A stretch of 64,000 nt of DNA from Shigella phage Sf13: sequence record MF158040, one strand, 5' to 3'. A model generated the notes under the pieces. That model ran no database searches, had not been told where the DNA came from, and worked only from the letters and a program-made list of their open reading frames with translations. Made by a program: the position numbers and the translations under genes. The stretch's first letter is position 1; every line of letters starts with the position of its first letter. Of this stretch, positions 1 through 53,772 are shown piece after piece.

Positions 1-246
1 TTCTTTATATGACTTCTGGATTTCTAAATATTGACGTAGAGATAATAAATCAACGAAGGTCATATCAAAAAGTTGGTTGAGTGTTTCTTTACACCCATCC
101 ATACCATAAATAGCAAGCACAAATTTCATCTCATCTGCTTCATCATAAGTTGCCTTTACAGCCCCGTCAGTCAGCGGGGTCTGCATAGAATAACTTAAGC
201 TTCCTGCTGAGAAGTTAGGCTTTTGAAAATGCTTGCCTCGAAAAAA
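1..246 (-). CDS. Partial ORF in -1 frame relative to 195..596; candidate frameshift extension of tail assembly chaperone (gpGT-like); 3' end lies beyond window start
   Basis: Minus-strand -1 frame is open with no stop from the slippery site (plus 240-246; mRNA T_TTT_TTC) to position 1; immediately downstream of the chaperone-like ORF. Confidence 0.4.
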
Positions 247-596
247 CTTCCGAAGTTTGCCTCCAAAGCAAAAGCTAAGAAGTCAATAAATTCACCGTAG
301 TTCGCTTGGAAGTAACTATCAATTTTCAGTGGGAAGTCATTAACTGTCGCCCCCTGAAATAGTGTCTCTGCCATTGCATCAATATCTAGTTCGTCAACCT
401 TTTCAAAGCAAGCTTCAACGAGTTCTTTAAATGGGATTTTAGCTTCACCATCTTTAGAGGTTAAACCAGAGAACATTTGTGCAAATGCTGGTACAACTGC
501 TTTACCAAGTTTCATAGAGATACGGATACCATCTCTTGCTCCAAGAAGAATAATAGTTACCTTCTTGCCGTTAATCATTTTAGTTTCAGTCTTCAT
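195..596 (-). CDS. tail assembly chaperone (gpG-like), 133 aa
   Basis: ORF track; ATG start with AAGGA RBS about 7 nt upstream; sits right after the tail tube gene; slippery heptamer near 3' end. Confidence 0.5.
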   Translation of the reverse strand: MKTETKMINGKKVTIILLGARDGIRISMKLGKAVVPAFAQMFSGLTSKDGEAKIPFKELVEACFEKVDELDIDAMAETLFQGATVNDFPLKIDSYFQANYGEFIDFLAFALEANFGSFFEASIFKSLTSQQEA

Positions 597-621: not shown

Positions 622-659
622 AAAAACACAAAAGGGGAAGACCTTTTACAGTCTCCCCC
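622..659 (-). terminator. rho-independent terminator (minus strand) after tail tube gene
   Basis: GC-rich hairpin (GGGGGAGAC...GTCTTCCCC on minus strand) followed by T-rich run. Confidence 0.45.
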
Positions 660-672
660 TTATTAGGATTTG

Positions 673-1119
673 TTAAACGCTTGACGCAGGGATTGTTGAA
701 GTGTAGTCTAACTTCTCACAACCGAAAATCCAAGTTTTCGAGTTCTGGTCACGACCTAATTCAATCTGTGGAAGCTCTTGCAACCAAGCATTAATACCTG
801 TTGCCAGAACTGAACCAGATGGGTCGTAAATTACAAAGTTAGATGAGATATCTTCTTCAAGTTCCATGTCATCTTGTTTAGCTTGAATTGCAGAAAGCAT
901 CTGGTTTGATAGAGAAGTCTGCATTAGCTCAATCTCAATCGTACCTGTCTTGTCTGCATTTCTTGTCAGAGCCACTTGACCACCTGCACCTACAACTTGC
1001 GTAACAAGTGGAGAGTTTCTCTGAAGACGCAAGAATGAGTCTGGTGCAAAACCTTCAATGGCAATGCCATTCCAGCTACAAACTACATCTTTAGGGGAAT
1101 ATTGCTGATACATAGCCAT
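673..1119 (-). CDS. tail tube protein (148 aa)
   Basis: ORF track; size and position directly downstream of sheath gene (myovirus sheath-tube order). Confidence 0.5.
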   Translation of the reverse strand: MAMYQQYSPKDVVCSWNGIAIEGFAPDSFLRLQRNSPLVTQVVGAGGQVALTRNADKTGTIEIELMQTSLSNQMLSAIQAKQDDMELEEDISSNFVIYDPSGSVLATGINAWLQELPQIELGRDQNSKTWIFGCEKLDYTSTIPASSV

Positions 1120-28493: not shown

Positions 28494-28553
28494 ATTCTCC
28501 AGTTTAGGAATTTTGTTTTAGTGGGGAAGTCTCCCTCCCCGTTGAAAGTAATA
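28494..28553 (-). promoter_or_regulatory. intergenic cassette, short form (GC hairpin + conserved RBS leader)
   Basis: Minus-strand hairpin GGGGA...TCCCC followed by CCTAAACTGGAGAAT and ATG. Confidence 0.5.
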
Positions 28554-28817
28554 TTAATTCATTGCTGCATAAGTTGCAAGTCTTTTTTCATTGTATTTTG
28601 TAAGAATCTCACAAGATAAAACGTCATACTTTGCAACGGCTTCAGATTTAGTTAAACCGAAATGGCTTACAATTTCACCATTCATGAATCCGACTACTTC
28701 ATAAGATTCTGCGATGATTTCACCGTTGAACCAATCACTTTCAATACGTTTGCAAAGTTGGATATCTTCTTTGTCAGTACCGATTTGTAACAGGATAGTG
28801 ATTTCTTGATTATTCAT
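28554..28817 (-). CDS. hypothetical protein (87 aa)
   Basis: ORF track; ATG after conserved leader. Confidence 0.5.
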   Translation of the reverse strand: MNNQEITILLQIGTDKEDIQLCKRIESDWFNGEIIAESYEVVGFMNGEIVSHFGLTKSEAVAKYDVLSCEILTKYNEKRLATYAAMN

Positions 28818-28877
28818 TTTCTAGTCTCCAGTTTAGGATTGTTGGGGAAGGTCATTCCCTCCCCGTTGATAAGTACT
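28818..28877 (-). promoter_or_regulatory. intergenic cassette, short form
   Basis: Hairpin GGGGAAGG...CCCTCCCC variant plus CCTAAACTGGAGACTAGAAA leader. Confidence 0.5.
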
Positions 28878-29405
28878 TTATAGATTTGTGATGATTTCGT
28901 CAAGGGAATTTTCTAAGTTTTTTAAAGATTGTTCGTAAAGTCTAATTCCCCTATTTAATGCTTCCCCTAACGTAATTTTAAAACTAGTTGTTGGGTAGTC
29001 ACTTGTAAAGATGTTTTCCACTTCATAGAGTGGGTATTGTTGGTTACCCGTTCCCATAGCATACATGCCTGTATAGTGGATTGCAATAAAAAGATTATGG
29101 GACTTAATAGAGCGCTCATAAGCCATTTTAAAGCGGTTTAACTCGTTTTTAGTTGCCTTAATAGCCATTTCGTGAATTTCTGCGACTATAGCCATATAAT
29201 CATTCAGAATGAGAGAAATAGCCCCCATAAAGTTGTTGGCTGTTACCGCTTTTACATTTGGTCGGTGTACATAAAACTTCTTATCTTCCCCTTTTGTGAT
29301 AACTGCAAAAACTTTACTCTTTAAGGTAAATTCCCAAGTGTCTTTACAAGGCTTGCTCATCACTTCACGGCTACGGATTGCATTAACAGCATTAAACTTA
29401 TTCAT
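28878..29405 (-). CDS. hypothetical protein (175 aa)
   Basis: ORF track; ATG after conserved leader. Confidence 0.5.
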   Translation of the reverse strand: MNKFNAVNAIRSREVMSKPCKDTWEFTLKSKVFAVITKGEDKKFYVHRPNVKAVTANNFMGAISLILNDYMAIVAEIHEMAIKATKNELNRFKMAYERSIKSHNLFIAIHYTGMYAMGTGNQQYPLYEVENIFTSDYPTTSFKITLGEALNRGIRLYEQSLKNLENSLDEIITNL

Positions 29406-29470
29406 TCTAGATTCTCCAGTTTAGGAATTTTGTTTTAGTGGGGAAGTCTCCCTCCCCGTTGATGAATACT
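29406..29470 (-). promoter_or_regulatory. intergenic cassette, short form (identical core to 28494-28553)
   Basis: Same 50-mer as cassette at 28494; flank duplicated again at 32911-32950. Confidence 0.5.
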
Positions 29471-52263: not shown

Positions 52264-52464
52264 CTACTTAGAAAACTTTTCAATAAGCTTTTTAAGCTTT
52301 CCGCTCAAATCATGTTTGATATCTAATATCTCAAAGATAACCCATACTAACATAGCTCCAAACAGAGCACCTTGTTTTAAATCAGTAAATAGGCTAGTAA
52401 CCATGAATGCCAGAGCAATCATCGGAGCATCTTCAACAAAACCATCCCATAAACGTTTAAGCAT
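52264..52464 (-). CDS. hypothetical small membrane protein (66 aa)
   Basis: ORF track; hydrophobic segments. Confidence 0.45.
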   Translation of the reverse strand: MLKRLWDGFVEDAPMIALAFMVTSLFTDLKQGALFGAMLVWVIFEILDIKHDLSGKLKKLIEKFSK

Positions 52465-52699
52465 TATTCACCTCTGCCATAAAGTTCTGTAGTGTTCCAA
52501 CAGGTTTCATTTCATTGTCTTCAACCTTCATAATGAAAGGCATCTGACGAACAGGTATCTTTGCAATATCCATCAGGTCACTTAGCTCATAATCTTTCCC
52601 TAGCATTCTTACAACATGGTCTAAGCCACGAGCCTGAGCAAAGTTCTTAGCAGTAACACACTGTGGGCATCCATCTTTTGAGTAAATTACATAAGTCAT
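52457..52699 (-). CDS. nrdH: glutaredoxin-like protein (NrdH-type redoxin)
   Basis: CPQC active-site motif near N-terminus; 80 aa; adjacent to nrdB. Confidence 0.6.
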   Translation of the reverse strand: MTYVIYSKDGCPQCVTAKNFAQARGLDHVVRMLGKDYELSDLMDIAKIPVRQMPFIMKVEDNEMKPVGTLQNFMAEVNNA

Positions 52700-53772
52700 T
52701 AAGGAACCTCTAAAAATCCTGAATTTAAATCATCAACAACAGTATTCAAAAGGTACGCACCATTTTGTTGTTCTTGGTTAGCGTTTTGCTCTTTATCAAT
52801 TTCCATCTTCTTAATCATATATTTCAAAGGTGGTTCTTTAGGAGCTACAAAGTCTCTTGGAATACCAAACATATCATACAATGGAGCAGCGTTGTAGTAA
52901 ACCCATTCGTGAAGAAGTTTTGTATTCAAACCTACAACAGCACGTCCTTCAGAGAAGATATAATAAGACCATTTCTCTTCACTTTCAACTACTTCATCCA
53001 GAATTACTTTAATTTCTGGGAGTACTTGACGGAAAGCTTCTTGCCACTCTTCATCTTTCAAAGTTTCTTTTAATGCTTCGATATCAATCTTTGTGTGAAT
53101 GATTTCGTCAAGCATAATTTTCTGTACTGCTTGTGCAATCCCTTGGAATTTATCTTGTGCATCAAGTGCAAAGGTACATGCAAAGGATGCCATGAAGGAA
53201 ATACCCTCAAGTGCTGTTACTGCAAAGAGACCTTTCAAGATTACTTTGTGGAAGTGTAAAGGGTCTTTCTCCATTAACTCTTGACGAACATAGCTTAAAC
53301 GATAGTTAATACCTTCGTCAAGTAATTCTGCCAGTGCTCTGTTCACAGTCTTCAATCTGTCCTGAACAGCAGCATTCTGGTTAATCTCATCAAGGATTGT
53401 TTCAGGGTTCTTGATACACTGACGAACAATCTCTGAATAAGTTAGTGCATGAAGGTTCTCAATTTCTGATTGCTTCATGATAGCAGTTGCATAGATATCA
53501 TCAGAGATGAATGGTGCAAAGGCAAAAGCTAAACTCTTAGCAACCTGTGTATCTGCTTCCCATTGCCATTTCAGAATCTCAAGCATTACACCAGACATTG
53601 ACTGAGGGACACTCTCAAAGTCTAAACGTGACTGTTCAAATGGGAACTCATCTTCAGACCAGTCTTGTGCTTTCTGCTGCTTATACAGTTCAAAGATTTT
53701 TGGATAGTGTTTATTCAGTGAATCGAAAGTTTTTCGTTCACCGCCTAAGAAAATTGGATGTGGGTTAATCAT
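52699..53772 (-). CDS. nrdB: ribonucleotide reductase small (beta) subunit
   Basis: 357 aa; di-iron ligand-like E/H spacing in central helices; adjacent to nrdA. Confidence 0.65.
   Translation of the reverse strand: MINPHPIFLGGERKTFDSLNKHYPKIFELYKQQKAQDWSEDEFPFEQSRLDFESVPQSMSGVMLEILKWQWEADTQVAKSLAFAFAPFISDDIYATAIMKQSEIENLHALTYSEIVRQCIKNPETILDEINQNAAVQDRLKTVNRALAELLDEGINYRLSYVRQELMEKDPLHFHKVILKGLFAVTALEGISFMASFACTFALDAQDKFQGIAQAVQKIMLDEIIHTKIDIEALKETLKDEEWQEAFRQVLPEIKVILDEVVESEEKWSYYIFSEGRAVVGLNTKLLHEWVYYNAAPLYDMFGIPRDFVAPKEPPLKYMIKKMEIDKEQNANQEQQNGAYLLNTVVDDLNSGFLEVP

What the first reader, a model, noticed from the sequence alone, without database searches (positions are those of the whole stretch)
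1..596. Candidate programmed -1 ribosomal frameshift in the tail assembly chaperone gene
Near the 3' end of the chaperone-like ORF the mRNA contains the slippery heptamer T_TTT_TTC (plus 240-246). The -1 frame is open from there through position 1 with no stop, while the zero frame stops at 195-197. This is the conserved G/GT arrangement of tailed phages; a tape-measure gene would be expected further downstream, outside the window.
Basis: partly seen in the sequence, partly recalled or inferred. Interest (0 to 1): 0.45.

Follow-up and report, generated by a model that had tools for sequence, protein, structure and literature searches.

The report
Known phage tail-chaperone frameshift site
The window starts inside the tail-assembly chaperone gene pair of a Felix O1-like (Mooglevirus) phage, and the T_TTT_TTC site is a real, strongly conserved -1 ribosomal frameshift signal of the textbook lambda G/GT type that is already annotated in sister phages, so it is correct but ordinary.

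Summary
On the minus strand, the 133-aa tail assembly chaperone ORF (195-596; Pfam Phage_TAC_15) contains T_TTT_TTC at 246-240 in the correct X_XXY_YYZ phase. Its stop is at 197-195. The -1 frame is open from 282 to the window edge.

The window is 99.8% identical to Shigella phage Sf18 (Mooglevirus). There the -1 frame runs 13 more codons (93 after the slip) and ends in a TAATG overlap with the tape-measure gene. The fusion would be 212 aa.

All 44 related IMG/VR loci, down to 24% identity, and the sampled GenBank phages keep two features:
- an in-phase T-rich heptamer at the same NFxSFF position;
- a -1 frame open for 76-99 codons.

The ATG used to annotate a separate "T" ORF is not positionally conserved. 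It is absent or far downstream in 15 of 44 loci. Here it has a weak SD and lies in a -19 kcal/mol hairpin.

A GGAGG sits 13 nt 5' of the heptamer, as in dnaX, and recurs in 15 of 22 distinct contexts. No 3' stimulatory structure was found.

The frameshift is already annotated for Michonne and described for Moogle, Michonne and Mijalis (2015-2017) and in a 2025 paper. I found no direct protein evidence. Verdict: real, already known, low interest.

The parts
195..596 (-). Gene G: tail assembly (tape-measure) chaperone, 133 aa, 14.7 kDa, the product of standard decoding
   Evidence: ORF. Pfam PF21822 Phage_TAC_15 at 7.5e-20, covering residues 9-122. phrog_1613 at 1.8e-48. Annotated as tape measure chaperone in Sf18 and Michonne.
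240..246 (-). Slippery heptamer T_TTT_TTC (U_UUU_UUC). Two tRNA-Phe on UUU and UUC can re-pair on UUU and UUU one base back.
   Evidence: Sequence and phase. Conserved in phase in 44 of 44 IMG/VR loci and in the sampled GenBank relatives. The Michonne record places its slippage coordinate inside this heptamer.
1..240 (-). T segment: the -1 frame extension, 80 codons inside the window and 13 more beyond position 1. The GT fusion is 119 + 93 = 212 aa, 23.8 kDa.
   Evidence: Translation. phrog_4963 at 5.6e-42. Substitutions between genera fall mainly on third codon positions of this frame, for example 6/6/23. Sizes.
260..264 (-). Internal Shine-Dalgarno-like GGAGG, 13 nt 5' of the heptamer. Candidate 5' stimulator of the -1 shift (inferred).
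   Evidence: Anti-SD duplex of -9.3 kcal/mol. The chance of such a window at this spacing is about 0.003, and none of 29 other in-phase heptamers has one. There are only 18 GGAGG on this strand in 64 kb. Present at the same place in 15 of 22 distinct contexts and built from different codons. The 9-14 nt spacing rule comes from PMC5009743.
184..186 (-). ATG used in many records to annotate the T segment as a separate 75-aa ORF. Probably not the main entry point.
   Evidence: Sf18 gp128 and Sf14 FDI99_gp115 start here. SD of -4.3 kcal/mol at 11 nt, weaker than 72% of gene starts in the window; the ATG is paired in a -19.4 kcal/mol fold. The position is not conserved between genera, and a Met is absent or far downstream in 15 of 44 loci.
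159..183 (-). G+C-rich hairpin CAGACCCCG...CGGGGCUG immediately 3' of ATG186, about 55 nt 3' of the slip site.
   Evidence: Folds. Partly kept by paired synonymous changes in other genera. It is too far from the heptamer for a classical 3' stimulator.
632..661 (-). Intrinsic-terminator-like hairpin between the tube gene and gene G. It probably lowers transcription into the chaperone and tape-measure genes.
   Evidence: 12-bp stem plus T tract. The same feature is annotated as a terminator in the Michonne record.
673..1119 (-). Tail tube gene (context)
   Evidence: PF11681 and phrog_280. Sf14 gp40 is the tail tube in the cryo-EM paper PMC11821841.
1134..2486 (-). Tail sheath gene (context)
   Evidence: phrog_205 'tail sheath' at 3.9e-118 and DUF3383.

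Best explanation
This is the G/GT tail-assembly-chaperone recoding site of a Mooglevirus, a Felix O1-like myovirus.

Most ribosomes read gene G (596 to 195, minus strand) to its TAA and make the 133-aa chaperone. A minority, with tRNA-Phe on UUU in the P site and tRNA-Phe on UUC in the A site of U_UUU_UUC (246-240), slip back one base. They continue in the -1 frame for 93 codons and make a 212-aa GT fusion. The fusion's stop overlaps the tape-measure start codon (TAATG).

By analogy with lambda, the shared G part would coat the tape-measure protein and the T part would recruit the tube protein. The fixed shift frequency would then set the G:GT ratio.

The shift is probably helped by an internal GGAGG 13 nt upstream that pairs with 16S rRNA, as in dnaX. 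No 3' RNA structure is evident, so a low efficiency is expected.

**Shown:** the sequence anatomy, the family membership of G and T, synteny, and deep conservation of the heptamer, its phase and the open frame.

**Inferred:** that the shift happens in vivo, its efficiency, the role of the SD-like element, and the division of labour between G and T.
For: **Anatomy and families**
- Heptamer in the correct phase, and the only one in G.
- The -1 frame is open for 93 codons and ends at the tape-measure start.
- G belongs to PF21822 and phrog_1613; T belongs to phrog_4963.
- Gene order is sheath, tube, G, T, tape measure.

**Conservation**
- In 44 of 44 IMG/VR relatives (97% down to 24% identity) there is an in-phase T-rich heptamer at NFxSFF and a -1 frame open for 76-99 codons.
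- The same holds in Felix O1, Suspvirus, Kolesnikvirus and Alteromonas phage PT11-V22.
- Kolesnikvirus has no ATG at the head of the T segment and no separate ORF annotated there.
- In the marine clade, conserved T residues lie upstream of the first Met.
- The T frame shows third-position-biased substitution.

**Weakness of independent initiation.** ATG186 has a weak SD and is buried in a hairpin more stable than the initiation regions of 52 of 53 gene starts in the window.

**5' stimulator.** GGAGG lies 13 nt upstream (p about 0.003). It is conserved through different codons in 15 of 22 contexts, and its spacing fits the published 9-14 nt range.

**Prior annotation and literature.** Michonne joined CDS; papers on Moogle, Michonne and Mijalis; Adele paper.
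Against: - I found no direct evidence in this clade: no fusion peptide, reporter assay or ribosome profiling.
- The Sf14 virion mass spectrometry (PMC11821841, Table 1) detected the product of the 75-aa T ORF (gp42 = FDI99_gp115) but not G (gp41 = FDI99_gp116). A GT fusion would also carry G peptides, so this result fits a free T protein at least as well. Lambda G and GT are also not virion components.
- U-rich heptamers are weak shifters in E. coli compared with A_AAA_AAG.
- No 3' stimulatory structure is supported. The 70 nt after the site fold no better than shuffles (z = -0.02), and the alifold stem shows no covariation.
- The SD-like element is missing in Kolesnikvirus and in the Pseudomonas clade.
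Confidence: 0.87

Rival explanations
1. There are two separate proteins and no recoding. The T segment is translated on its own from ATG186 as a 75-aa protein, either by direct initiation or by re-initiation of ribosomes that have just terminated at the G stop 8 nt upstream. The heptamer is then only a by-product of the conserved Ser-Phe-Phe coding.
For: - Most GenBank records, including the 99.8%-identical Sf18 and RefSeq Sf14 and Felix O1, annotate two separate CDSs.
- In Mooglevirus, Felixounavirus and Suspvirus an in-frame ATG lies 2-8 nt after the G stop, even though the stop itself has moved.
- Sf14 virion mass spectrometry detected the T ORF product but not G.
Against: - The SD is weak and badly spaced (-4.3 kcal/mol at 11 nt), and Felix O1 has none.
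- The ATG sits in a -19.4 kcal/mol structure.
- The ATG is at different codons in different genera and is mutated to ATA in one Felixounavirus contig, L034.
- It is absent in Kolesnikvirus, and the first Met is at least 36 codons in, or missing, in 15 of 44 loci. The -1 frame is nevertheless open back to the heptamer in all of them.
- This model does not explain the SD-like element at frameshift spacing.
Confidence: 0.07
2. The mechanism is transcriptional slippage rather than ribosomal slippage. RNA polymerase stutters on the T6 run and adds one U to a fraction of the mRNAs, which puts G and T in one frame and gives the same GT protein.
For: - The site is a homopolymer run, and more distant relatives carry T7.
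- The deposited genome of phage CL1 has T7 at this spot and therefore encodes GT as one 213-aa ORF. This shows that a +1 U mRNA would give the same product.
Against: - The cases of bacterial transcriptional slippage described in the review (PMC5009743) involve runs of about 9 A or T. Here the run is only 6.
- The run is always in the X_XXY_YYZ phase.
- An SD-like element at the spacing typical of -1 ribosomal frameshifting accompanies it in most lineages. Such an element has no role in transcription.
- In IMG/VR the T6 form occurs in 27 contigs and the T7 form in none, so CL1 looks like a homopolymer error or a rare mutant.
Confidence: 0.05
3. Coincidence: the heptamer and the open -1 frame have no function.
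For: In-phase slippery heptamers are common: there are 32 in ORFs of this window.
Against: - Only this heptamer is followed by a long, family-matched, purifying-selected -1 ORF that ends at the tape-measure start.
- The arrangement is kept in every relative examined.
Confidence: 0.01

Closest known systems
Tape-measure chaperone with annotated ribosomal slippage in Citrobacter phages Michonne, Moogle and Mijalis (Mooglevirus; KT001916, KM236239, KY654690)
   Same: It is the same gene at 89.6-89.8% nucleotide identity, with the same heptamer and the same 212-aa fusion. The slippage coordinate annotated in the Michonne record falls inside the heptamer. The frameshift is described in the genome announcements.
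   Different: Nothing substantive differs. The nearest records to the window (Sf18, Sf14, 99-100% identical) annotate two separate CDSs instead.
Bacteriophage lambda G/GT (Levin, Hendrix and Casjens 1993; Xu, Hendrix and Duda 2004, 2013, 2014)
   Same: - Two overlapping ORFs lie between the major tail or tube gene and the tape-measure gene.
[quoted passage not shown]
- No 3' structure is evident here; that none is required in lambda is from my own knowledge.
- The lambda functional model is summarised in PMC5009743.
   Different: - Lambda is a siphovirus and uses G_GGA_AAG (own knowledge). This phage is a myovirus and uses U_UUU_UUC.
- The G protein here belongs to a different Pfam TAC family (PF21822).
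- A 5' SD-like element is present here.
- Lambda G and GT are absent from virions, whereas the T ORF product was reported in Sf14 particle preparations.
Phage P2 E/E+E' tail chaperone frameshift (Christie et al. 2002)
   Same: It is a contractile-tailed phage with a -1 shift on a U-rich heptamer (T_TTT_TTG, from my own knowledge) just upstream of the tape-measure gene.
   Different: I detected no sequence relationship. P2 efficiency is reported as 2- to 3-fold higher than lambda, while the efficiency here is unknown.
TAC-N/TAC-NC locus of Pakpunavirus Adele and other Vandenendeviridae (PMC12846349, 2025)
   Same: It is a homologous G protein (about 26% identity) with the same NFGS[VF]F position and an uninterrupted -1 frame. 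That paper notes the same GTTTTT motif in 231 Andersonviridae phages, which it links to the Mooglevirus annotations.
   Different: The Pseudomonas clade has G_GTT_TTT, which re-pairs imperfectly in the P site, and it lacks the SD-like element at 10-13 nt.
E. coli dnaX -1 frameshift cassette
   Same: It has an internal Shine-Dalgarno-like sequence at the spacing that stimulates -1 shifting (9-14 nt). Marine relatives even carry AGGGAG, which to my knowledge is the dnaX element.
   Different: dnaX uses A_AAA_AAG plus a strong 3' stem-loop and shifts at about 50%. Here the heptamer is U-rich and no 3' stem-loop is supported.

Membership tests
G/GT-type tail assembly chaperone with programmed -1 frameshift (Xu, Hendrix and Duda 2004) | The gene pair lies between the major tail or tube gene and the tape-measure gene | tested here: met
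   The order is sheath 1134-2486, tube 673-1119, G 195-596, T 1-240. The tape-measure gene starts 41 nt beyond the window edge in the 99.8%-identical Sf18 (Pfam TMP_3, 2.8e-16).
G/GT-type tail assembly chaperone with programmed -1 frameshift (Xu, Hendrix and Duda 2004) | The downstream ORF overlaps the 3' end of the upstream ORF in the -1 frame and is open back to the shift site | tested here: met
   The -1 frame is open from 282 to the window edge, 93 codons after the slip in Sf18. The G stop is at 197-195.
G/GT-type tail assembly chaperone with programmed -1 frameshift (Xu, Hendrix and Duda 2004) | A slippery X_XXY_YYZ heptamer in the zero-frame phase lies inside the overlap | tested here: met
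   T_TTT_TTC at 246-240 with codons AGT|TTT|TTC. It is the only such site in G.
G/GT-type tail assembly chaperone with programmed -1 frameshift (Xu, Hendrix and Duda 2004) | The arrangement is conserved in relatives despite sequence divergence | tested here: met
   It is kept in 44 of 44 IMG/VR loci and in the sampled GenBank phages from four Ounavirinae genera, Myoalterovirus and Nankokuvirus.
G/GT-type tail assembly chaperone with programmed -1 frameshift (Xu, Hendrix and Duda 2004) | A fusion protein is made in vivo as a minor product alongside G | not testable with these tools
   I found no fusion-peptide, reporter or profiling data. The Sf14 virion mass spectrometry reports the T ORF product but was searched against the annotated proteome only.
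Pfam PF21822 Phage_TAC_15 / PHROG 1613 (tail assembly chaperone) | The profile score is above the curated gathering threshold over most of the domain | tested here: met
   72.2 bits against a cut-off of 22, covering residues 9-122 of 133. phrog_1613 at 1.8e-48.
dnaX-like stimulated -1 frameshift cassette | An internal SD-like sequence lies 9-14 nt 5' of the shift site | tested here: met
   GGAGG at 264-260 with a 13-nt spacer and a duplex of -9.3 kcal/mol (p about 0.003). It recurs in 15 of 22 contexts. Its function was not tested.
dnaX-like stimulated -1 frameshift cassette | A stable stem-loop lies a few nt 3' of the shift site | tested here: not met
   The 70 nt 3' of the site fold no better than shuffles (z = -0.02). 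The consensus stem has -6 kcal/mol and no covariation. The only strong hairpin is about 55 nt away.
Transcriptional slippage site | A long homopolymer run (about 9 A or T in the bacterial cases cited) | tested here: not met
   The run is 6 T here. The threshold is as summarised in PMC5009743.

The most novel reading that the evidence does not exclude
The T-frame product in Felix O1-like phages may be more than a transient, frameshift-only chaperone. It may be made in two forms:
- GT, by an SD-stimulated -1 shift;
- free 75-aa T, by termination-reinitiation at an ATG that tracks the G stop in three genera.

One of the two forms may stay in the finished virion, as the Sf14 particle mass spectrometry hints. 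That would depart from the lambda paradigm, in which neither G nor GT is in the particle.
Probability: 0.12. Interest if true: 0.4.

Novelty: already known. Interest (0 to 1): 0.12.

Why it matters
The practical value is for annotation. The nearest database records (Sf18, Sf14, Felix O1 RefSeq and many others) list two separate small CDSs. Kolesnikvirus records leave the T segment unannotated altogether. The evidence here supports one joined CDS with ribosomal slippage across the whole group.

Two small points go beyond the existing annotations:
- An internal Shine-Dalgarno-like element sits at the dnaX-type distance. It is kept in distant lineages through different codons, and it gives a testable explanation for how a weak U-rich heptamer reaches a useful shift rate.
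- A published virion proteome detected the T-frame product but not G. The public spectra can be re-searched with the fusion sequence to resolve this.

Neither point changes the picture of phage tail assembly.

Tried and rejected
**3' RNA stimulator.** I folded the 70 and 141 nt around and after the site and ran RNAalifold on eight Ounavirinae sequences.
- No stable or covarying structure lies next to the heptamer.
- The near-invariant 26 nt after the site is explained well enough by dual coding.
- I rejected the hairpin at 159-183 as a stimulator because it is about 55 nt away.

**Solved-structure relatives.** I searched by sequence with the GT fusion and with a six-sequence G profile. Nothing was found.

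**NCBIfam and Pfam.** NCBIfam has no model for G or T. Pfam has no model for the T segment.

**Structure prediction.**
- G alone, without an alignment, gave an unusable model with pLDDT 46.9. I ran no fold search.

**Sf14 mass-spectrometry details.** I looked for peptide-level detail in the paper's supplement and found none.

**In-frame T7 form.** I asked whether it is common in nature. There were 0 IMG/VR contigs with T7 against 27 with T6, so CL1 is an outlier.

**Second long -1 frame in the window.** The heptamer at 52723-52729 is followed by the next overlapping gene, has a poor slip site and no SD-like element. I rejected it.

Full report
**What is there**

Read on the minus strand, the left end of the window carries a contractile-tail module:
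- Sheath gene at 1134-2486 (phrog_205, 3.9e-118).
- Tube gene at 673-1119 (phrog_280; Pfam KPP10_Orf10).
- A terminator-like hairpin at 632-661.
- A 133-aa ORF at 195-596. It is a tail assembly chaperone by Pfam PF21822 Phage_TAC_15 (72 bits against a cut-off of 22) and by phrog_1613 (1.8e-48).

The sequence ...GGA AGT TTT TTC GAG... places TTTTTTC at 246-240 with zero-frame codons AGT|TTT|TTC. The zero frame stops at 197-195. The -1 frame is closed by TGA at 285-283 and is then open from 282 to position 1, giving 80 codons after the slip. That -1 segment matches phrog_4963, 'tail assembly chaperone', at 5.6e-42.

**Origin of the window and what lies beyond its edge**

The first 2.5 kb are 99.8% identical to Shigella phage Sf18 and 99% identical to Sf14, Sf17 and KPS64. 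These are Mooglevirus phages of the Ounavirinae, the Felix O1-like myoviruses.

In Sf18 the -1 frame continues for 13 codons past the window edge, 93 codons after the slip in all. It ends in TAATG, where its stop overlaps the start of a 745-aa tape-measure protein (Pfam TMP_3, 2.8e-16). The predicted products are G (133 aa, 14.7 kDa) and GT (119 + 93 = 212 aa, 23.8 kDa).

That test was poorly framed, because the extension is already long and ends exactly where a G/GT extension should.

**More than chance**

ORFs of at least 100 aa in the window contain 32 in-phase slippery heptamers. The -1 frame after them stays open for 0-25 codons in all but two cases. One exception is this site. The other is at 52723-52729, where the '-1 frame' is simply the next gene (52457-52699), overlapping by ATGA.

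**Comparative evidence**

tblastn with the fusion sequence found 338 phage records, and 297 of them cover most of the query. In the sample of 60 listed, the match was split into two frames in all full-length hits but one.

I examined loci from Felix O1, Z31, CL1 (Felixounavirus), ESh22 and Michonne (Mooglevirus), EcSzw_1 (Suspvirus), phiEa21-4, phi63_307 and Ea_Tu10 (Kolesnikvirus), Alteromonas phage PT11-V22 and Pseudomonas phage G1. I also examined 44 IMG/VR loci found with a G-protein profile, ranging from 97% down to 24% identity.
- Every one has a T-rich heptamer in phase at the same NFxS[FV]F position. It is TTTTTTC in Ounavirinae, TTTTTTT in marine and other relatives, and GGTTTTT in the Pseudomonas clade and one uncultured relative (L057).
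- Apart from CL1, whose G and T are already fused in one frame, every one has a -1 frame open for 76-100 codons. In all the GenBank loci that run to a tape-measure gene, it ends at or just before that gene's start.
- Substitutions between genera in the T frame fall mainly on third codon positions, for example 6/6/23, so the frame is under purifying selection.

**The start codon of the 'separate T ORF' is not conserved**

- Mooglevirus uses ATG at YSMQTPL.
- Felixounavirus uses an ATG four codons earlier, and one contig (L034) has ATA there.
- Kolesnikvirus has none, and its records leave the segment unannotated.
- In 15 of 44 IMG/VR loci the first Met lies at least 36 codons into the segment or is missing. 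In the marine clade it lies downstream of conserved T residues.

In this window ATG186 has a weak, badly spaced SD (-4.3 kcal/mol at 11 nt), weaker than 72% of gene starts in the window. It is paired in a -19.4 kcal/mol fold that is more stable than the initiation regions of 52 of 53 genes. Together these data make frameshifting the conserved route to the T domain.

**Mechanism details**

I found no convincing 3' stimulator.
- The 70 nt after the heptamer fold no better than shuffles (z = -0.02).
- The consensus stem next to the site has -6 kcal/mol and no covariation.
- Dual coding can account for the near-invariant 26 nt after the site.

There is a GGAGG at 264-260, 13 nt 5' of the heptamer.
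- The published spacing for SD-like stimulators of -1 shifts is 9-14 nt (PMC5009743).
- The strand has only 18 GGAGG in 64 kb.
- The chance of so strong an anti-SD match at that spacing is about 0.003. None of the 29 other in-phase heptamers on this strand has one.
- The element recurs at the same place in 15 of 22 distinct sequence contexts. It is built from different codons: Leu-Glu-Ala TGGAGGC in Ounavirinae, and Arg/Lys-Glu AGGGAG or AAGGAG in marine relatives.
- It is absent from Kolesnikvirus and from the Pseudomonas clade.

I regard a dnaX-like 5' stimulator as likely but untested. U-rich heptamers are weak shifters in E. coli. That fits a low GT:G ratio like that of lambda, about 1:30.

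**Rivals**

*Independent initiation or termination-reinitiation* could give a free 75-aa T protein. It is supported by three things: the common two-CDS annotation, an in-frame ATG 2-8 nt after the G stop in three genera, and the Sf14 virion proteome. That proteome lists gp42 (FDI99_gp115, the T ORF) as detected and gp41 (FDI99_gp116, G) as not detected. The lack of start-codon conservation argues against it as the sole route. It may coexist with frameshifting.

*Transcriptional slippage* would give the same protein. The deposited CL1 genome has T7 and hence a single 213-aa ORF. However, the run here is only 6 T, the T7 form is absent from IMG/VR against 27 contigs with T6, and an SD-like element has no role in transcription.

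*Pure coincidence* is excluded by the comparative data.

**Comparison with what is known, and novelty**

This is the conserved G/GT arrangement of long-tailed phages (Xu, Hendrix and Duda 2004; summarised in PMC5009743). For this very gene it is already on record:
- GenBank KT001916 (Michonne) carries a joined CDS with 'ribosomal slippage (47149)' inside the same heptamer.
- The Moogle, Michonne and Mijalis genome announcements state it.
- A 2025 paper reports the conserved GTTTTT motif in 231 Andersonviridae genomes and in Vandenendeviridae.

What is missing everywhere is direct protein evidence.

Noticed in passing
window 632-661 (-): A strong intrinsic-terminator-like hairpin (12-bp stem, T tract) lies between the tube gene and chaperone gene G. 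The same feature is annotated as a terminator in the Michonne record. It probably steps down transcription between the abundant sheath and tube genes and the low-copy chaperone and tape-measure genes.
   Followed up: partly
window 159-183 (-): A G+C-rich hairpin (CAGACCCCG...CGGGGCUG) starts right after ATG186 of the annotated T ORF. The -20..+40 region folds at -19.4 kcal/mol, more stable than the initiation regions of 52 of 53 gene starts in the window. The stem is partly kept in other genera by paired synonymous changes. Its role is unknown: it might mask the internal ATG or affect mRNA stability.
   Followed up: partly
window 11656-16347 (-): There is a cluster of 25 tRNA genes. One of them, at 12583-12658, is tRNA-Phe(GAA), the species that reads both codons of the slippery site. 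Whether phage tRNA supply affects the shift rate is unknown.
   Followed up: no
L005 (Escherichia phage CL1, OK040806) 957-963: The deposited CL1 genome has seven T instead of six at the slip site, so G and T form one 213-aa in-frame ORF. The T7 form is absent from IMG/VR (0 contigs against 27 with T6). It is probably a homopolymer sequencing error or a rare mutant.
   Followed up: partly
Sf14 (L013 1459-1686; paper PMC11821841, Table 1): Virion mass spectrometry of the near-identical phage Sf14 lists the 75-aa T ORF product as detected and the G product as not detected. This is unexpected if the T segment exists only as part of a GT fusion, and unexpected for a chaperone that in lambda is absent from particles. 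No peptide-level data are held in the paper's supplement.
   Followed up: partly
window 52723-52729 (-): A second in-phase heptamer, T_TTA_AAT, lies 8 codons before the stop of ORF 52699-53772 and is followed by 88 open -1 codons. That frame is simply the next gene (52457-52699), overlapping by ATGA. The heptamer is a poor bacterial slip site and has no SD-like element upstream.
   Followed up: yes
window 28494-28545 and 29411-29462, partial copy 28814-28880: A 52-nt perfect direct repeat, with a third diverged copy, lies in intergenic positions upstream of small minus-strand ORFs. On the coding strand it reads as a hairpin GGGGAGGGAGACTTCCCC followed by an RBS-like CTGGAGAAT. It looks like a repeated regulatory cassette.
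   Followed up: no
L012 (Pseudomonas phage G1), L051, L054, L057: The Pseudomonas (Vandenendeviridae-type) relatives and the uncultured contig L057 have G_GTT_TTT at the homologous position. Only the A-site tRNA can re-pair perfectly there, and they lack the SD-like element at 10-13 nt. Their -1 frame is still open for 76-100 codons. If they frameshift, the mechanism is less canonical.
   Followed up: partly
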